A stretch of 64,000 nt of DNA, taken from positions 256,001 through 320,000 of the forward strand of contig CAWJKZ010000025.1 of the NCBI GenBank assembly GCA_963843575.1, read 5' to 3'. The notes beneath the pieces are model-generated. The model was not told where the DNA came from, ran no database searches, and saw only the letters and a list, made by a program, of their open reading frames with translations. The translations under genes were made by a program, and so were the position numbers. Source of the stretch: an uncultured Acidobacteriota bacterium (GTDB lineage Bacteria; Acidobacteriota; UBA6911). This document shows positions 4,232 through 52,187 of this stretch, one piece after another. The first letter of the stretch is position 1. Each line of letters begins with the position of its first letter.

Positions 4232-4918
4232 GGCTTATTGCCTATTATAGTCGCGGTCTTCCGGGTTTGAAGTGGGTGGAATGGGGAATCTGCGCCGCGC
4301 TCATAGTCACCACCCTCGGCTGACGGCTTATAAGCGTACGGCATGATAGGGCTTCGTGATCTCGTAAGCCATTTCCCTCGTGAGAGATGCGCTTGGGCTG
4401 GGCACCCACACCGGTCAAGGGCGCGCCAGCGGCGCGGCGTAGCGAACCCGTGACGACGAGGACGACCAGCCAAGAATCGACGACGCGGGAAAGGGGTTAC
4501 CCACTTCAAATTCGGAAGACCCCATAGTCGAACAGGTGCTCTGCCAGATCTTCAACGCGCACACGGTGCGTGTTGACCTGCACGGTCTGGCGGAACGTAT
4601 CTAGCCTTTCCTCGGCGAGAGCAAGATCGGCCTTACCCTGCAGCAGTTCGACGAATGCGGACTGCAGGTCGACGACGACCGTCTGAACCGTGCTGAGGAA
4701 TTGGAGTTGTACCGTTGAACACCGCGGCCTCTGCTACATGGAAGATGAACCCGGAAAGGATAATGGCGGCTCGGACAGGAGAACCGGCGCTTGGCAGCCA
4801 TCGTATCCGCATCCGGCTAGATGCAAAATCCTAATGTGCCGGTAACAACTTCTTAACACCCAGGATGTTACGCTGAACTAGGTGGCGTTTTGCTGTCGAG
4901 AGCACCTTGGAGGCTGTT

Positions 4919-34757: not shown

Positions 34758-34995
34758 GCTTCATTGTGGAGTGCGGCGGCTCGGCGCCGCCACAGGCCGA
34801 GGTCGCAGGGTCGCATCCATCAATTCGGCATGGCGCCGAGGCGCCGAGCATTCCTGCCGCAGCACCTAAGTAAAAGCGGCGCCGAGGCGCCGCACTCCAG
34901 ATTACTTCAGCTTCATTGTGGAGTGCGGCGGCTCGACGCCGCTTTGGTGGCGGCGCCTCGGCGCCGCCACAGGCCGAGGTCGCAGGGTCGCATCG
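34758..34995. repeat. REP family B (GGAG-TGCGGCGGC...GCCGC), tandem units; other copies ~42826-42900, 45436-45517, 46369-46500, 52005-52172
   Basis: tggagtgcggcggctcg(a/g)cgccgc...ggccgaggtcgcagggtcg...gcggcgccgaggcgccgcactccag. Confidence 0.85.
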
Positions 34996-44231: not shown

Positions 44232-44526
44232 TCACGGCACTTCGAGGTCGGCGACCACCGGGTGGTGATCCGATGCCATGGGGGCGGGCGGCTCCGCGGC
44301 CACCCGGACCATGGAGACCCGCACTGCGGGCGAAGCGAAAATGTAATCGATGCGCCGGTCCGGCGGCTTCCCGGGCGCCGCCGGCAGCGTGAGTCCGGCC
44401 CCGTAGCCCCGCGCCATGATGGATGTTGTAGCTCATGACACGAAACCCGCGTCGTTCGGCGCCCGCGCCCGCCCCGCACGCCAGCGCCGCCGACAGCAGC
44501 AATGCTGCCCCGCCTGACTTCCCCAT
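44232..44526 (-). pseudogene. endonuclease/exonuclease/phosphatase family gene, internally deleted (junction ~44408)
   Basis: Signal peptide + RVMSYNIHHG joined out of frame to RRIDYIF...ASDHHPVVADL. Confidence 0.85.
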
Positions 44527-44662
44527 GGGACCTTTGTATTTTATGCCGCCGCCGCTGTCAAGCCGGGCGCCGGCGCCAACCCCGGATGAGGGTTGCCACG
44601 GGAACCGCAACTCCCTACAATCCCGGAGACGCCGGCGCCAACTCGAGGCCGTGAGGTATCCA

Positions 44663-45424
44663 ATGAACTACGGAAAGACGAAGGTGGTTGTCTGCAGGGA
44701 CGAGTTCGAACTCGGCCGCCGGGCGGCGTCGGATGTCGCCTCCAGGGTCAGGGAGTTGCTCGCCCTGAGGGATGAAGTCCGGATCGTCTTCGCCGCGGGG
44801 GAAAGTCAGGTGACCTTTCTCGCCGGCCTGGCCTCCGAAAAGGACATCGACTGGACCCGCGTCGTCTGCTTCAACATGGACGACTTCTACGACCGGACCC
44901 TGCCGGAAGAGTTCACCTGCGGCCACCAGACCCGGACCCAGCTCTACGACAAGGTCAAGCCCAGGGGCGCGCACCTCGTCCGCTACAACGCCCCCGACCC
45001 CGAGGCGGAAGCCCGACGGTTCGAACAGGTGCTGCGGCAGGCGGGCCCCATCCATGTCCTTTGCCAGGGGATCGGCACTTCCGGCCACCTGGCGCTCAAT
45101 GAACCCTACGACACCGATTTCCTGGACAGCAGATGGGTGCGGGTGGTCTCGCTCGCAGAGCAGTCCAAGATTCAGCTCAGCGAGGATCCGAACTTCAAGG
45201 CGCTGGGCTATATCCCCTCCACCGGCATAACCATCACCATCCCCGCCCTTTTAGCCGCGGAGAACACCTTCACCATGGTGCCGCTGCGTCTCAAGCGGCC
45301 CATCCTCGAGAGGCTTTTTGCCCTCCGCGAGCCCACCGAGGCGCTTCCAGCCTCCGTCCTGCTCGAGGTCGAAGGGACGCTCTACCTCGATCGGAACTCC
45401 TGTCCCGAGGAGCTGCAGGCTTGA
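44663..45424 (+). CDS. nagB: glucosamine-6-phosphate deaminase family
   Basis: FAAGESQ, FNMDDF, GIGTSGHLALNEP, ITITIP, PASVL. Confidence 0.8.
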   Translation: MNYGKTKVVVCRDEFELGRRAASDVASRVRELLALRDEVRIVFAAGESQVTFLAGLASEKDIDWTRVVCFNMDDFYDRTLPEEFTCGHQTRTQLYDKVKPRGAHLVRYNAPDPEAEARRFEQVLRQAGPIHVLCQGIGTSGHLALNEPYDTDFLDSRWVRVVSLAEQSKIQLSEDPNFKALGYIPSTGITITIPALLAAENTFTMVPLRLKRPILERLFALREPTEALPASVLLEVEGTLYLDRNSCPEELQA

Positions 45425-45543
45425 CCCTCACGAGGGGCGCCTCGGCGCCCCCGCCAGACCGAGGTTGCAGCGTCGCAAGCTCGCAATTCGGCGTGGCGCC
45501 GAGGCGCCGCACTCCAGGATCGATCATTAAACACCGTGATGCC

Positions 45544-46041
45544 CTAGTCCACCTCTGCCAGCTTCCCCGTTTGCACGTCGTAGATGAATCCCCGGATCGG
45601 GATCTCCTGCGGGATCCAGGGATGCGATCGAGCGCGCTCGACCTGAAGGCGAACATCCGCTTCCAGGTCGGAGAAGCTGTGGAACCGCGTCGGAGCCACC
45701 GCGGCGTGTCCGGTCTTGCGCCTCAGGTCCGCCTCCAGCTTGTCGTCGGTGAACGTCAGCATGCCGCAGTCGGTGTGGTGCACGAACATGAACTCGTTCG
45801 TCCCGAGCAGGTAATGGGAAATGAGCAGCGACCGAACCGCGTCTTCCGTGAGTATCCCGCCCGCGTTCCGGATGATGTGCGCTTCACCGGTCTTGAGCCC
45901 GAGGATCTGCTCAATAGTCAGACGGGCGTCCATGCAGGCGACTACGGCCAGCTTGCGGGCAGGGGGCATCTTGAGGTGCCCGAGTTTGAACTGGCTGGCG
46001 TAAATGCCGTTCGCACGGACGGCTTCGTCGATGACAGTCAT
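45544..46041 (-). CDS. beta-carbonic anhydrase, clade D (Rv1284/COS hydrolase-like)
   Basis: ACMDAR, IRNAGG, HHTDCGM, GFIYDVQTGKL; AAAGGAG RBS. Confidence 0.93.
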   Translation of the reverse strand: MTVIDEAVRANGIYASQFKLGHLKMPPARKLAVVACMDARLTIEQILGLKTGEAHIIRNAGGILTEDAVRSLLISHYLLGTNEFMFVHHTDCGMLTFTDDKLEADLRRKTGHAAVAPTRFHSFSDLEADVRLQVERARSHPWIPQEIPIRGFIYDVQTGKLAEVD

Positions 46042-46067
46042 GCTTTTCTCCTTTCGAAAACAACGGC

Positions 46068-46103
46068 AAAAAAAAACCCGCCGCCGGAAGGACCGGAGAC
46101 GGG
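46068..46103 (-). terminator. intrinsic terminator (attenuator) upstream of the beta-CA
   Basis: CCCGUCUCCGG-uccuu-CCGGCGGCGGG followed by U9, ending ~26 nt before the CA start. Confidence 0.85.
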
Positions 46104-46133
46104 CTGGATTCGAACCAAAATCGATCCTGAGCG

Positions 46134-46214
46134 TCACCCCCCGGGCAGGTAGAGTTCGCCACAGCTACAACAGATGCAGCTCAGCAAACCCGCCATGAAG
46201 GAGGAACAACCCAT
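46134..46214 (-). CDS. Cys-rich leader peptide MGCSSFMAGLLSCICCSCGELYLPGG
   Basis: 5 Cys in 26 aa, 4 within CICCSC; stop 30 nt before the terminator. Confidence 0.75.
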   Translation of the reverse strand: MGCSSFMAGLLSCICCSCGELYLPGG

Positions 46215-46221
46215 GGCCCTT

Positions 46222-46249
46222 ATTCTAACGTAAGCGTGAGAGATTACAA
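46222..46249 (-). promoter_or_regulatory. sigma70-type promoter, probably giving a leaderless transcript
   Basis: TTGTAA-N16-TAGAAT, 7 nt before the leader ATG. Confidence 0.6.
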
Positions 46250-46626
46250 GGCGGCGACGACAGATAATTGCGCCGGCATGCGCGGCTGCGGATGGGCCGG
46301 AGGCGCGCTCCATTGATCGGCTGCTGAGCGGCAAATTCGATCCCGAACAGCCTGGTGCGGCGGCCGTTTGTGGAGTGCGGCGGCTCGACTGGCTCGACTC
46401 CGCTTTGGTGGCGGCGCCTCGGCGCCCCCAAAGGCCGAGGTCGCAGGGTCGTATTTCGGAATTCGGCGCGGCGCCGAGGCGCCGGGCACTCCAGATCACT
46501 TCAGGTCGTCCGGATTGAACGTCAACCGTTGGACAGCCTCTGAAGCCGGACCGCACTGCCCGCGTCCAGCCCTCTCGGGTTCCAACCGCCGGCCGCGCCG
46601 GGACCTCCATCCGGTCTTTCCCGCGA

Positions 46627-46926
46627 TCAGTCGGATTCCGGATACTTGTGGCACAGGACGCAGCTGACGGCCGTTCCCTTGGGCAGGCTGATACGCTTGC
46701 CCTGCGACGTTTCGCGGCAGCCGGCGCTCTCGGAGCATTCCAGGAGGCGGTTCGCGGCGGTGCGGGCCAGCGGCGAACCCTGGAGTTGGGCTCCGTGGCA
46801 GGCTTGGCACGTCCCCGCGGGAGTGCGACCGTCCTTGAACACTTCCTTGTGGTTCTGGTTCCACATCCGGTCGTTGACCGGGTGCATTCCGTGGGGGCCG
46901 CGCAGAAGGCCGGCGCTGTCGAACAT
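46627..46926 (-). pseudogene. C-terminal fragment of a multiheme cytochrome c
   Basis: GPHGMH, CQACH, CVLCH; no signal peptide. Confidence 0.65.
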
Positions 46927-47145
46927 CCCTTTGATATTGGGGTGCGTAAGCCTTCGAACGATCCAGGGAGGGGGGGCCGACCCGACGTTCGCTCATCCCT
47001 GCGCGGACGCGGCGCTCCGGCACCGCCTTCCGCACTCAGACTGTCATGTGTTGTTCGGCTTATCCCGAATTTAGGAGAGCTTATTAAGACGGTGCGCGGC
47101 CGGTCAACCGTCAATGATGCACTTTTGCCGCAAAATGCCACGGAA

Positions 47146-47161
47146 TGTGACGCCCGTCACC
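47146..47161. promoter_or_regulatory. CRP-family-like binding site
   Basis: TGTGA-N6-TCACC next to a TTTTGC-C-GCAAAA palindrome in an AT-rich intergenic stretch. Confidence 0.3.
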
Positions 47162-47271
47162 AAAACCGGGGCGTGTCGTCGGGTAAACGGGCGACAGGGG
47201 GACGCGCTCGAGCGGCGGCGAGCCGAAGCGCCGGCCCGCCGCTCCGCCCGACTGTGCGCGCACGCAACCGA

Positions 47272-48465
47272 TCAGCCGCCAGCCTGGGCGAAGGCGGCCA
47301 GGGCCGTGTCGCGGTACACCTTTTTCAGAAGCGGGTCGGGCAGCCCAAGGCCGTGCATCGGCCAGTGGTAGTCGAAATTGAAGTAGAGGTCCTGCTCGTA
47401 GAAGTGCTCGTCGAGCGACTCGAGCACCCGGAACGTGGTGCTGAACATGCGCTCGCTGTAGGGCATGTCGGTCCCGTAGCACAACCGGTGCGCGTACTTC
47501 TGGTAAAACGCCGCGGCGAAGCGCGGGATCGGGGCGGTCTCGGCGAAGCGCGCGGAGATGTCGGCGTACAGGTTCGGGTTGCGGTCGAACATCCCGCCGA
47601 GGCGGGTCAGGTCGTAGTCGAGGTTGGCGAAGTGGCAGGCGATGAAAACGGTCTTCGGGTGCCTCCGCGCGGTGCGTTCCAGGGTTTGGATCAGCTCGTT
47701 GTGTCCCATGATGTCGGGCTTGTCGTCGAGGCGCCAGCTGAAGCCGTTCATCAGGCCGTCGTTGTGCCTGTCCTGCGGCAAGTAGGACCAGTAGGGATCG
47801 GACATGTGCAGGTTGACGGGCATGCCGAGCGCGGCGCACTTTTCCCACAGCGGGTCCATGCGCGCGTCGTCCGGGTGTGGCCCGGTCGCCGGGGCGCGGT
47901 TGCGCGAATCGCCGGGCCAGCCGACAGGACCCGTGGGGATCACGCCCCCGATGCCCCTCCCCTTGTCGCCGATTTCGCCGACGCCGCGGGCGCCAGCCTT
48001 GCGGCAGCGTTCGAGCTCCCTGACCGCCGCCGGCCCGAAGCCCGGTTCGTTCATCCCGGTCATGTCGAAGCCGCACCACACGTCGAAGCGCTGCGGGTAT
48101 TTCGAGTAGAGCCGGTGCATCTCGTCAAATCTCGCCCCGGTGCCGCCGCTGAACACGACGGTCCGCTCGACGCCGGCCGCGTCCATGAGCTTGACGAGCG
48201 CATCGACGTCCTCCGTGGATTTCGCGCGCCCGTGATAGTGCACGTCGATGGCGGGGTATTTCGCCTTCCGGATGTCTGAAACCGGGATCTTGTATATGGA
48301 TTTGGGCCGGTAGTCTTTCAGCAGGAGCTTGTCCGGGAGCACGGCCTCCGACGGGCCCCGGGCTGCGGCCTGGCGCGCCCTTGCGGCGCGCGGCATGGCG
48401 GCGAGTGCGCCGCCCGATAAGAGGAACCACTCTCTGCGATCAAGGGCGTGTCCGGTACGTTTCAT
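47272..48465 (-). CDS. Tat amidohydrolase family 2 protein
   Basis: DRREWF, IDVHYH, LHMSDP, ACH, YGTD. Confidence 0.9.
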   Translation of the reverse strand: MKRTGHALDRREWFLLSGGALAAMPRAARARQAAARGPSEAVLPDKLLLKDYRPKSIYKIPVSDIRKAKYPAIDVHYHGRAKSTEDVDALVKLMDAAGVERTVVFSGGTGARFDEMHRLYSKYPQRFDVWCGFDMTGMNEPGFGPAAVRELERCRKAGARGVGEIGDKGRGIGGVIPTGPVGWPGDSRNRAPATGPHPDDARMDPLWEKCAALGMPVNLHMSDPYWSYLPQDRHNDGLMNGFSWRLDDKPDIMGHNELIQTLERTARRHPKTVFIACHFANLDYDLTRLGGMFDRNPNLYADISARFAETAPIPRFAAAFYQKYAHRLCYGTDMPYSERMFSTTFRVLESLDEHFYEQDLYFNFDYHWPMHGLGLPDPLLKKVYRDTALAAFAQAGG

Positions 48466-51873: not shown

Positions 51874-52187
51874 TGTTTGTCACGCTGAACCAAGTGGGTC
51901 CGGGCTTCAGCCCGGACGTCTTTAGAACCGGTCCATAGAGTTCCAGCTGCCCTGCATAGCGACTGCAAACTGCCTCCGGGCTGAAGAGGTCGTCCAACGG
52001 TTGATTGTGAAGTGCGGCGGCTCGACGCCGCTTTGGTGGCGGCGCCTCGGCGCCACCAAAGGCCGAGGTCGCAGGGTCGCATCTCGCAATTCGGCGTGGC
52101 GCCGAGGCGCCGAGCATTCCTGCCGGTAGGACGAGTGAAAGCGGCGCCGAGGCGCCCCACTCCAGATTACCCACGTGGCGCGCCGCG

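What the first reader, a model, noticed from the sequence alone, without database searches (positions are those of the whole stretch)
45544..46249. Candidate cysteine-sensing ribosome attenuator controlling a COS-hydrolase-clade beta-carbonic anhydrase
Seen (minus strand, in order): TTGTAA-N16-TAGAAT; 7 nt; ATG of a 26-aa ORF MGCSSFMAGLLSCICCSCGELYLPGG (46214-46134) without a clear SD; a GC hairpin plus U9 (46103-46068); an RBS; a clade-D beta-CA. By manual pairing, the ORF's last codons and following bases (CCGGG..GAC-GCU..GGAU-CGA) pair with UCG.AUCC-AGC..GUC-UCCGG, which includes the terminator's 5' arm, forming a mutually exclusive antiterminator. A ribosome stalled at CICCSC would leave that segment free; one reaching the stop codon would cover it. 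Established: this is the trp/his attenuation layout; leaderless poly-Cys sORFs regulate sulfur genes in mycobacteria; clade-D beta-CAs include COS and CS2 hydrolases that release H2S. Inference: Cys limitation switches on an enzyme that scavenges sulfur from COS/CS2. I know of no description of this pairing in Acidobacteriota.
Basis: partly seen in the sequence, partly recalled or inferred. Interest (0 to 1): 0.9.

Follow-up and report, generated by a model that had tools for sequence, protein, structure and literature searches.

The report
Cysteine-sensing attenuator before a carbonic anhydrase
A tiny cysteine-rich reading frame followed by a transcription stop signal sits in front of a carbonic-anhydrase-like gene and most likely switches that gene on when the cell runs short of cysteine, which suggests that the enzyme frees sulfur from the gas carbonyl sulfide.

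Summary
On the minus strand there is a promoter-like site, then 7 nt, then a 26-codon sORF with five Cys codons (46214-46134). A strong hairpin with U9 follows (46104-46068), then an SD and a 165-aa beta-carbonic anhydrase (46041-45544).

The cysteine-attenuator reading is well supported by comparison:
- The promoter, the start position, the Cys cluster and the terminator recur at the orthologous gene in 3 of the 4 family genomes that carry it. The rest of the peptide is not conserved.
- In this genome the same device (Cys-cluster sORF plus terminator) precedes sulfite reductase-cysH and, divergently, the siroheme genes.
- It precedes 7 of 11 sulfite-reductase-like loci in the family.
- Two unrelated Cys leader peptides of the SD-masking kind precede the same enzyme clade in Actinomycetes-type genomes.

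Weak points:
- The proposed antiterminator appears in ribosome-masked folds, but for the window it is no better than shuffled sequence.
- There are no RNA data.
- Sequence cannot separate a COS hydrolase from a true carbonic anhydrase.

This is a new variant of a known kind. A Cys attenuator with a terminator has been predicted before only upstream of cysS. The new target gene bears on why heterotrophic soil bacteria degrade COS.

The parts
46244..46249 (-). -35-like hexamer TTGTAA
   Evidence: TTG and the spacing are kept in L002 and L003.
46222..46233 (-). -10 hexamer TAGAAT (46227-46222) with the conserved block TTACGTTA just upstream
   Evidence: The block TTACGTTA(G/T)A(A/G)T is shared by all three homologous leaders. 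This pattern plus 5-8 nt plus ATG occurs once in the whole genome.
46134..46214 (-). Leader sORF of 26 codons plus stop. The ATG lies 7 nt after the -10 hexamer, so a leaderless start is inferred.
   Evidence: Orthologous sORFs have 26 and 25 codons and a 6-nt distance from the -10 hexamer to the ATG.
46161..46178 (-). Cys codon cluster (codons 13, 15, 16, 18: UGC, UGU, UGU, UGU); proposed stalling site
   Evidence: A cluster sits at the same place in L002 (CCC) and L003 (CCCCC).
46199..46213 (-). Region 1: the 5' part of the sORF, paired with region 2 in the minimum-energy fold of the untranslated leader
   Evidence: The same topology appears in the folds of L002 and L003.
46121..46144 (-). 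Region 2: antiterminator 5' strand, spanning the last sORF codons and the stop codon (46136-46134)
   Evidence: It starts 16 nt after the last Cys codon. A ribosome at the stop codon would cover it.
46093..46113 (-). Region 3: antiterminator 3' strand, which includes the terminator 5' arm (46104-46093)
   Evidence: In the stalled-ribosome fold 9 of 12 arm nucleotides pair upstream.
46068..46104 (-). Intrinsic terminator: hairpin 46104-46076 and U9 46076-46068
   Evidence: -19.9 kcal/mol. It is the only helix that the three-sequence consensus fold recovers clearly.
46048..46054 (-). Shine-Dalgarno AAAGGAG of the carbonic anhydrase gene
   Evidence: Only 13 nt separate the U-tract from the SD, and no promoter-like site lies there.
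45544..46041 (-). Beta-carbonic anhydrase gene, 165 aa (P0001), close to the Rv1284, CafC, COSase and CS2-hydrolase group

Best explanation
The 5' region of the carbonic anhydrase mRNA is a ribosome-mediated, cysteine-responsive transcription attenuator.

Proposed steps:
- Transcription starts at or next to the AUG of a 26-codon leader ORF (inferred).
- If Cys-tRNA is plentiful, the ribosome runs to the stop codon and covers region 2 (46144-46121). If the leader is not translated at all, region 2 pairs with the 5' part of the sORF. In both cases the hairpin 46104-46076 with U9 forms and transcription ends 27 nt before the gene.
- If Cys-tRNA is scarce, the ribosome stalls at the cluster of Cys codons 13-18. 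Region 2 starts 16 nt downstream of the last Cys codon and stays free. It pairs with region 3, which holds the terminator's 5' arm, and the polymerase reads through into the gene.

What is shown: the parts, their geometry, their conservation, and the use of the same device at sulfur-assimilation genes.
What is inferred: the leaderless start, the stalling, the exact antiterminator and the response to Cys.

Inferred function, at about even odds: the enzyme hydrolyses COS (or CS2) to H2S, which feeds cysteine synthesis under sulfur shortage.
For: 1) Anatomy in the window.

2) Orthologous genes. The gene occurs in 4 of 51 genomes of the family. Three of the 4 (window, L002, L003) have a promoter 6-7 nt before the ATG, a 25-26-codon sORF with a Cys cluster (CICCSC, CCC, CCCCC) and a terminator. 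The other residues differ. A fourth, non-homologous example is L097.

3) Enrichment. Of 160 loci with at least 150 nt upstream, 9 have an sORF with at least 3 Cys in 6 residues on the sense strand, against 3 on the antisense strand; shuffles give a mean of 1.7 and a maximum of 4. For at least 4 Cys in 6 the counts are 4 sense and 0 antisense, with a shuffle mean of 0.15.

4) Same genome, contig C10. A Cys-cluster sORF plus terminator precedes sulfite reductase and PAPS reductase. A divergent 26-codon sORF (TTGCCA-N17-TATAAA-N6-ATG) plus terminator precedes the siroheme synthase genes.

5) Of 11 sulfite-reductase-like loci in the family, 7 carry a Cys-cluster sORF followed by a hairpin and a U-run (hairpins read from the printed sequence).

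6) Ribosome-masked folds. In 4 of 4 leaders the stalled state pairs the sORF end with the terminator 5' arm: 9 of 12, 12 of 13, 10 of 12 and 6 of 7 nt, at -18.5 to -27.9 kcal/mol. With the ribosome at the stop codon the terminator forms.

7) Other phyla. Two conserved Cys leader peptide types precede this enzyme clade in Actinomycetes-type and Dormiibacterota genomes. In L039, L043 and L140 the Cys codons pair with the gene's SD. On a tree of 186 enzymes the leader-bearing genes form four separate small groups.

8) Function. [quoted passage not shown]
Against: - The antiterminator is not statistically distinctive. Shuffled upstream sequence pairs with the terminator arm as well or better in 403 of 500 trials for the window, 45 of 500 for L002, 65 of 500 for L003 and 16 of 500 for L097.
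- In thermodynamic folds of the full stalled-state RNA the terminator wins in 3 of 4 leaders (L001-L003; in L097 only when stalled at the last Cys), so read-through would need kinetic trapping.
- With three homologous sequences, the consensus fold recovers only the terminator clearly. Other pairs depend on the alignment.
- L002 and L097 leaders are not more stable than shuffles (z -1.9 and +0.17).
- In L097 the candidate region 2 lies about 20 nt before the stop codon, so a ribosome at the stop would not cover it.
- Most relatives of the enzyme lack any Cys leader: 151 of 160. This includes L004, from the same family.
- No transcript start, transcript end or ribosome data exist.
- Rv1284, the best solved relative, is reported to have high CO2 hydration activity (PMC12035519, passages). 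A plain carbonic anhydrase is therefore not excluded.
Confidence: 0.72

Rival explanations
1. The Cys sORF does sense cysteine, but not through the proposed antiterminator. Ribosome position could act on the terminator directly, for example by physical coupling to the polymerase or by queued ribosomes. It could also act through Rho, through mRNA decay, or through re-initiation at the downstream gene.
For: The antiterminator is no better than chance for the window. In the sulfite reductase leader, the segment complementary to the terminator arm lies inside the sORF, 10 codons before the stop. That does not fit the classical stop-codon masking (my reading of the sequence). L097 also has a different geometry.
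Against: In the three homologous leaders the G-rich segment at the sORF end is one of the few conserved blocks. It lies 8-16 nt after the last Cys codon and at or just before the stop codon, as the classical model requires.
Confidence: 0.13
2. The regulation is as proposed, but the enzyme is an ordinary carbonic anhydrase (CO2/bicarbonate). Its link to cysteine would be indirect and would not involve sulfur scavenging from COS or CS2.
For: The best solved relative is Rv1284 (E 1e-45), which is reported to have high CO2 hydration activity. No sequence or tunnel feature separates high-CA from low-CA members of the clade (PMC12035519, passages). The neighbouring genes in the window are unrelated to sulfur.
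Against: The same regulatory device controls sulfite reductase, cysH and the siroheme genes. Short clade-D enzymes of 163 aa are efficient COS hydrolases and support growth on COS (PMC10880591 and PMC8209446, passages). H2S is the direct substrate of cysteine synthase (established knowledge).
Confidence: 0.25
3. The promoter-to-terminator unit is a gene in its own right and does not control the downstream gene. It would encode a small Cys-rich peptide (for example a metal-binding one) or a roughly 150-nt small RNA.
For: A promoter, an ORF and a terminator form a complete unit. The enzyme is a zinc protein, so a Cys-rich partner is conceivable.
Against: Only the Cys cluster and the length are conserved between orthologous sORFs, not the peptide. 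There are 13 nt between the U-tract and the SD, and no promoter-like site for the enzyme gene. The same arrangement precedes unrelated sulfur genes. The sORF has no Pfam match.
Confidence: 0.06
4. The short Cys-rich frame, the hairpin and the promoter-like site coincide by chance in GC-rich DNA.
For: GC-rich genomes hold many spurious open frames. This sORF frame stays open for 335 codons upstream.
Against: See the genome-wide scans, the sense versus antisense and shuffle counts, and the conservation at orthologous loci. The 335-codon frame has no Pfam match and runs across a dispersed repeat.
Confidence: 0.02

Closest known systems
Classical leader-peptide transcription attenuators (trp, his, leu, thr operons of enterobacteria)
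   Same: A short leader ORF rich in codons for the sensed amino acid, an intrinsic terminator just before the structural gene, and alternative pairings 1:2, 2:3 and 3:4. The stop codon lies within region 2.
   Different: The sensed amino acid is cysteine. The start appears to be leaderless instead of SD-led. The controlled gene is a single accessory hydrolase rather than a biosynthetic operon. The organism is probably an acidobacterium, but the taxon was not verified here: the closest named records for the enzyme are Terriglobia and Bryobacterales MAGs.
Mycobacterial polycysteine leaderless sORF attenuators (Canestrari et al. 2020, bioRxiv 10.1101/834739; passages read)
   Same: A short ORF with a run of Cys codons, apparently leaderless, in front of sulfur-related genes. 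Several loci are controlled independently, forming a regulon.
   Different: In mycobacteria the Cys codons pair with the SD and the control is translational, with no terminator. Here an intrinsic terminator follows the sORF, and the SD is not paired with the Cys codons. The mycobacterial design does appear in front of the same enzyme clade in L039, L043 and L140.
uORFC-8-2 motif upstream of cysS in Rhodobacterales (Brewer et al. 2021, PMC8632094; passages read)
   Same: A predicted ribosome-mediated attenuator with tandem Cys codons in a uORF and a terminator stem with a U-run.
   Different: It is found only upstream of cysS in alpha-proteobacteria and has two Cys codons at positions 14-15. 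It has not been tested experimentally. It is not described for sulfur assimilation genes or for carbonic anhydrases. No Rfam family matches the window leader.
Clade-D beta-carbonic anhydrases with COS hydrolase activity (Thiobacillus thioparus COSase 3VQJ; Trichoderma harzianum COSase)
   Same: P0001 matches 3VQJ at E 1.3e-42 and has the Cys/His/Cys zinc ligands and the Asp/Arg pair. At 165 aa it is close to the fungal enzyme's 163 aa (PMC8209446, passages).
   Different: Activity is unknown. The fungal enzyme is reported as constitutively active (PMC10880591, abstract), whereas here expression would be switched by cysteine supply.

Membership tests
Leader-peptide transcription attenuator | Short leader ORF enriched in codons of the sensed amino acid | tested here: met
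   Five of 26 codons are Cys, against 1.0% genome-wide. The cluster is conserved in L002 and L003.
Leader-peptide transcription attenuator | Intrinsic terminator between the leader ORF and the structural gene, with no promoter in between | tested here: met
   The hairpin is -19.9 kcal/mol and is followed by U9. No promoter-like site lies downstream of it.
Leader-peptide transcription attenuator | Mutually exclusive antiterminator that is free when the ribosome stalls and masked when it reaches the stop codon | tested here: inconclusive
   The geometry fits, and the masked folds show it in 4 of 4 leaders. For the window, 403 of 500 shuffles pair as well. Three sequences are too few for covariation.
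Leader-peptide transcription attenuator | The leader is transcribed and translated, and read-through responds to the amino acid | not testable with these tools
   No RNA run holds the stretch.
Mycobacterial polycysteine leaderless sORF attenuators | mRNA begins at the start codon of the sORF | tested here: inconclusive
   The distance from the -10 hexamer to the ATG is 7, 6 and 6 nt in the three homologous leaders, and 6 nt in the siroheme leaders. The transcription start is not mapped.
Mycobacterial polycysteine leaderless sORF attenuators | Cys codons pair with the SD of the downstream gene; control is translational, without a terminator | tested here: not met
   The SD (46054-46048) is not paired with the Cys codons in the folds, and a terminator is present.
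uORFC-8-2 motif | Located upstream of cysS, with the conserved two-stem motif | tested here: not met
   The downstream gene is a carbonic anhydrase. No Rfam family reaches its threshold. No model of the motif itself was available to me.
Clade-D beta-carbonic anhydrase | Pro_CA domain with Cys, His, Cys zinc ligands and the Asp-x-Arg pair | tested here: met
   PF00484 matches at 2.8e-13. C36, D38, R40, H89 and C92 are invariant in 6 of 6 orthologs.
Clade-D beta-carbonic anhydrase | Groups with Rv1284, CafC, COSase and CS2 hydrolase rather than with other beta-CA clades | tested here: met
   E-values against solved structures: 1ylk 1e-45, 6jqc 1.3e-42, 3vqj 1.3e-42, 3ten 6.1e-27, and 1ddz 8.1e-5. 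This rests on similarity ranking only. No tree with reference clades was built.
Carbonyl sulfide hydrolase | High activity on COS and low CO2 hydration | not testable with these tools
   Sequence and tunnel features do not separate the two (PMC12035519, passages).

The most novel reading that the evidence does not exclude
Clade-D beta-carbonic anhydrases are regular members of bacterial cysteine-starvation regulons. At least three or four lineages independently placed a Cys-codon leader in front of this enzyme. One design is a terminator-based, apparently leaderless attenuator in the window's family. Two others are SD-masking leader peptide types in Actinomycetes-type and Dormiibacterota genomes. 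If so, hydrolysis of COS (or CS2) to H2S is a regulated sulfur-acquisition route in heterotrophic soil bacteria, and the microbial sink for atmospheric COS would depend on the sulfur status of the cells.
Probability: 0.4. Interest if true: 0.8.

Novelty: new variant of a known kind. Interest (0 to 1): 0.68.

Why it matters
Two points.

First, regulation. Cysteine was long the amino acid without a classical attenuator. Canestrari et al. (passages read) wrote that uORF-mediated attenuation for cysteine had not been described, and they then showed a translational type in mycobacteria. The only terminator-based Cys uORF I found in print is a prediction upstream of cysS (PMC8632094). Here a terminator-based and apparently leaderless version controls several loci: sulfite reductase-cysH, the siroheme genes and this enzyme. 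The lineage is one in which almost no attenuator has an assigned function (PMC2965389, passage).

Second, physiology. [quoted passage not shown] A cysteine-starvation switch in front of the gene, acquired independently in several lineages, is the kind of evidence that assigns that role. It also makes the question directly testable, with reporters and with growth on COS. COS uptake by soil is used as a tracer in carbon-cycle work, so control of the enzyme by sulfur status would be of practical interest.

Tried and rejected
- A tRNA-like element. The leader contains GGTTCGAATCC, the usual T-loop sequence (recalled). ARAGORN finds no tRNA or tmRNA in the window, and the motif is not kept in L002 or L003. 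I reject it as coincidence.
- Known RNA families. Nothing reaches its threshold in 44500-47500 or at the sulfite reductase leader (only sub-threshold matches to terminator-like hairpins).
- Significance of the antiterminator. The duplex energy against 500 dinucleotide shuffles is not significant for the window (403 of 500) and marginal for the others.
- Covariation. The consensus fold of three sequences recovers only the terminator clearly. Three sequences are too few for a test.
- A looser Cys criterion (at least 2 Cys in 4 residues, stop 10-130 nt before the gene) gives noise: 17 sense against 12 antisense of 160 loci.
- The conserved promoter block elsewhere in the genome. The pattern TTACGTTAKART plus 5-8 nt plus ATG occurs only at this locus, so there is no sign of a shared operator.
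- The other 10 of 13 hits of the genome scan lie in long open frames or lack a start codon. I did not follow them further.
- Neighbouring genes in the window are an amidohydrolase, a glucosamine-6-phosphate isomerase-like gene, a xylose-isomerase-like TIM barrel and a WYL regulator. None is linked to sulfur.
- Downstream partners. In L001, L002, L003 and L097 I saw no co-directional gene after the enzyme gene.
- Expression. No RNA holder is listed for the stretch.
- Table 1 of Canestrari et al. is an image, and its supplementary tables are closed. They may list a carbonic anhydrase among the regulon genes. The main text has 0 occurrences of "carbonic anhydrase", "Rv1284" or "canA".
- Only the best 80 of 596 candidate stretches (genomes) and the best 80 of 583 (metagenomes) were seen. 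The frequency of Cys leaders across the clade is therefore a sample.
Full report
**What is there.**
All elements lie on the minus strand of the window:
- TTGTAA (46249-46244), a 16-nt spacer and TAGAAT (46227-46222).
- Seven nt, then ATG at 46214.
- A 26-codon ORF, MGCSSFMAGLLSCICCSCGELYLPGG, with its stop at 46136-46134.
- A hairpin at 46104-46076 (-19.9 kcal/mol) followed by nine U (46076-46068).
- AAAGGAG at 46054-46048.
- ATG at 46041, opening a 165-aa ORF that ends at 45544.

The promoter-like site is one of two in 3 kb; shuffles give a mean of 0.3. No promoter-like site lies between the terminator and the gene, and only 13 nt separate the U-tract from the SD.

The protein has a Pro_CA domain (PF00484, 2.8e-13). 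Its best solved relatives are Rv1284 (1e-45), Aspergillus CafC 6jqc (1.3e-42), Thiobacillus COS hydrolase 3vqj (1.3e-42) and CS2 hydrolase 3ten (6.1e-27). The zinc ligands and the Asp/Arg pair are invariant in six orthologs.

No tRNA and no Rfam family matches the leader.

**Is it more than chance?**
Cys makes up 1.0% of codons in long ORFs of this 64% G+C genome, against 5 of 26 codons in the sORF. Four of the five are UGU, which is only 21% of Cys codons genome-wide.

I scanned the whole 6.68-Mb genome in two ways.
- Criterion 1: at least 3 Cys codons within 6, a stop within 30 codons, and a strong hairpin with a U-run within 140 nt. This gave 13 hits. Three of them lie directly upstream of this gene, of sulfite reductase plus PAPS reductase, and of the siroheme synthase genes. 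The other ten lie in long open frames or lack a start.
- Criterion 2, with no terminator: a sigma-70-like promoter whose -10 hexamer ends 5-8 nt before an ATG or GTG that opens a short frame with a Cys cluster. This gave 3 hits. They are this leader, the siroheme leader and one weak site.

**Orthologous loci.**
The enzyme gene is present in 4 of 51 genomes of the family, which here is the same set as the order.

Three of the four carry the same unit:
- L002 (same genus, 71% identical enzyme): TAGAAT, 6 nt, ATG, MVGFLHDSGEWTVCCCRGRNPGEVGT, terminator.
- L003 (another genus, 73%): TATAGT, 6 nt, ATG, MSNVRCRRLGNHCCCCCGTNREDVR, terminator.
- L004 (67%) has none.

In the alignment of the three leaders the conserved blocks are the -35, a TTACGTTA block with the -10, the ATG, the Cys codons, a GGG(G/A)GG segment at the end of the sORF, and the terminator with its U-run. 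The rest of the coding sequence has diverged. This pattern fits a regulatory leader and does not fit a functional peptide.

Among 160 loci with at least 150 nt upstream (of 169 fetched):
- A short ORF with at least 3 Cys in 6 residues occurs in 9 on the sense strand and in 3 on the antisense strand. Shuffles give a mean of 1.7 and a maximum of 4.
- With at least 4 Cys in 6 the counts are 4 sense and 0 antisense, with a shuffle mean of 0.15.
- One further terminator-bearing example, L097 (a metagenome contig, 68%), has an unrelated leader, MSAYRPSAAPFALGSACQCCCCRLRSGMGWVPVF.

**The same device at sulfur assimilation genes.**
Both leaders lie on contig C10 of the same genome (locus L171).
- The plus-strand sORF ends in MTGFACCCICRVPGNRSLVHETIEP (4631-4708). 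A 28-nt perfect hairpin with a U-run follows, then a 727-aa NIR_SIR sulfite reductase and a PAPS reductase.
- The divergent minus-strand unit is TTGCCA-N17-TATAAA-N6-ATG, then MVLRRSNMICACCCTLRGFRVAEGAV (26 codons), then a terminator. It precedes a siroheme synthase N-domain protein and a uroporphyrinogen methyltransferase.

In the family, 11 sulfite-reductase-like loci were found in 10 of 51 genomes. Seven of the 11 have a Cys-cluster sORF followed by a hairpin and a U-run. I read these hairpins from the printed sequence and did not score them.

This is the strongest argument that Cys-cluster sORF plus terminator is a cysteine-responsive switch in this lineage, and that the enzyme belongs to the same regulon.

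**Mechanism.**
Positions below count from the A of the AUG:
- The Cys cluster occupies nt 36-53.
- Region 2 occupies nt 70-93, with the stop codon at 78-80.
- Region 3 occupies nt 101-121, of which 110-121 is the terminator's 5' arm.
- Region 4 occupies nt 127-138.

I took a ribosome to protect about 12 nt beyond the A-site codon; this figure is my assumption, taken from general knowledge of ribosome footprints. On that basis, stalling at any cluster codon leaves region 2 free, and a ribosome at the stop codon covers all of it.

Folds with the protected part removed show this in 4 of 4 leaders. In the stalled state the sORF end pairs with the terminator's 5' arm: window 9 of 12 nt at -19.5 kcal/mol; L002 12 of 13 at -20.8; L003 10 of 12 at -18.5; L097 6 of 7 at -27.9. 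With the ribosome at the stop, the terminator forms.

In the untranslated leader, region 2 pairs with the first 15 nt of the sORF. The Cys cluster then sits in the apical part of that long hairpin. The same topology appears in L002 and L003. This would keep the default state off.

**Limits of the mechanism.**
- The complementarity between the upstream segment and the GC-rich terminator arm is not unusual. Shuffled segments do as well in 403 of 500 trials for the window, 45 of 500 for L002, 65 of 500 for L003 and 16 of 500 for L097.
- In equilibrium folds the terminator beats the antiterminator in three of four leaders. That is also true of classical attenuators (my knowledge), but it means kinetics must decide.
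- Three homologous sequences give no usable covariation.
- In L097, and in the sulfite reductase leader, the segment complementary to the terminator arm lies well before the stop codon. The stop-codon masking rule therefore does not hold for all members.
- The leaderless start rests only on the 6-7 nt distance from the -10 hexamer to the ATG. This distance is seen in the three enzyme leaders, in both siroheme leaders and in two leaders of L181.
- No RNA run holds the stretch.

**Other phyla.**
The loci L039 (record title Candidatus Dormiibacterota), L043 (Actinomycetes) and L140 (metagenome) carry a conserved leader peptide ending in AGC-x-x-CLC(S/T), about 45 nt before the enzyme gene. There is no terminator. 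In the minimum-energy folds the codons UGCCUCUGU pair with the gene's SD (GGAGGCA). That is the design shown experimentally in mycobacteria (bioRxiv 10.1101/834739, passages).

A second peptide type, ending in CSS(S/F)CCCCN, occurs in L073 and in two further genomes, L187 and L188. In all, 5 of 26 published loci from relatives of the L043 genome have a Cys-cluster sORF, against 0 of 26 on the antisense strand. Three of the five are the loci already counted.

I built a maximum-likelihood tree of 186 enzyme sequences (FastTree, midpoint root). The leader-bearing genes form separate small groups:
- {window, L002, L003}, support 0.99.
- L097 alone.
- {L039, L043, L140}, support 0.62.
- {L073, L187, L188}, support 0.99.

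Their common ancestors span 74-184 tips that lack leaders. Several independent recruitments are the simplest reading, though one gain followed by many losses is not excluded.

**What the enzyme does.**
Sequence does not settle this. Passages of PMC12035519 state that Rv1284 has high CO2 hydration activity, while CafC and the fungal COS hydrolases have little. They also state that neither the extra loop of the Thiobacillus enzyme nor tunnel hydrophobicity explains the difference.

The regulatory context is therefore the main clue. The gene is switched together with sulfite reduction and siroheme synthesis. The product of COS or CS2 hydrolysis, H2S, is the direct sulfur donor for cysteine synthase (established knowledge).

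[quoted passage not shown] The same paper says that the role of COS degradation in heterotrophic bacteria is unknown.

I put the COS/CS2 reading at about even odds, and a plain carbonic anhydrase at about one in four.

**Comparison with what is known, and novelty.**
- The mechanism works like the trp and his attenuators.
- It shares the Cys run and the apparently leaderless start with the mycobacterial sORFs. It is not a member of that class, because the defining SD pairing is absent and a terminator is present.
- Candidate Cys leader peptides without terminators were noted in Actinobacteria in 2005 (PMC1262725, passages).
- A Cys-Cys uORF with a terminator upstream of cysS in Rhodobacterales was predicted in 2021 (PMC8632094, passages).
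- My searches found no description of a Cys attenuator in Acidobacteria, or in front of a carbonic anhydrase, sulfite reductase or siroheme genes. These searches cover only the held library, and supplementary tables were closed.
- I did not verify the taxon of the window. The closest named records for the enzyme are Terriglobia and Bryobacterales MAGs.

**Verdict.**
It is a new variant of a known kind. Its main value is the link it draws between cysteine starvation and a COS-hydrolase-like enzyme.

Noticed in passing
L171 (G000:C10:422500-431500) 4300-4830, outside the window: A divergent pair of Cys-cluster sORFs, each followed by a terminator. The plus-strand one precedes sulfite reductase and PAPS reductase. 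The minus-strand one has 26 codons and a promoter ending 6 nt before its ATG, and it precedes the siroheme synthase genes. The same arrangement is present in the same-genus genome (L173).
   Followed up: yes
L171 4664-4678 and 4736-4763: In the sulfite reductase leader, the codons after the Cys cluster (CCC GGG AAC CGG) repeat the terminator's 3' arm (GGAACCGGGG), so they can pair with its 5' arm. A peptide motif (G/R)(N/D)R(S/F) follows the Cys cluster in 5 of 7 family leaders, probably because of this RNA constraint. This segment lies 10 codons before the stop codon, which does not fit simple stop-codon masking.
   Followed up: partly
L039, L043, L140 (about 135-40 nt before the enzyme gene); L073, L187, L188: Two conserved Cys leader peptide types (ending AGCxxCLC(S/T) and CSS(S/F)CCCCN) lie upstream of clade-D carbonic anhydrases in Actinomycetes-type and Dormiibacterota genomes. 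Both share an RR-x-VD stretch before the Cys residues. In the first type the Cys codons pair with the SD of the gene.
   Followed up: partly
window 45423-45521 and about 46400-46490 (also near 34832-34878 and 52098-52143): The leader-plus-gene unit is flanked by two copies of a GC-rich, imperfectly palindromic repeat of about 90 nt. Its 14-nt core occurs 139 times in the genome and 6 times in the window. It looks like a dispersed REP or MITE-like element.
   Followed up: partly
window 46106-46116 (minus strand): The apical hairpin between regions 2 and 3 contains GGTTCGAATCC, the usual tRNA T-loop sequence (recalled). ARAGORN finds no tRNA, and the motif is absent from the orthologous leaders.
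   Followed up: yes
window 46222-46233 (minus strand); L002, L003: The block TTACGTTA directly upstream of, and running into, the -10 hexamer is identical in three genera, although the spacer around it varies. With the ATG spacing it occurs once in the genome. It could be an extended promoter element or a protein binding site.
   Followed up: partly
window 46161-46208 (minus strand): Four of the five Cys codons of the sORF are UGU, whereas UGU is only 21% of Cys codons in long ORFs of the genome. This could reflect slower wobble decoding or a constraint from RNA pairing.
   Followed up: no
window 46134-47141 (minus strand): The sORF frame stays open for 335 codons upstream. That frame has no Pfam match, is rich in Arg, Pro, Ala and Ser, and crosses the dispersed repeat, so it is a spurious open frame of GC-rich DNA. 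A gene caller could mistake it for a gene and hide the sORF.
   Followed up: yes
L097 about 900-1000 (just upstream of its leader): The sequence directly upstream of the L097 leader looks like the 3' part of a tRNA gene ending in CCA. I did not check it with ARAGORN.
   Followed up: no
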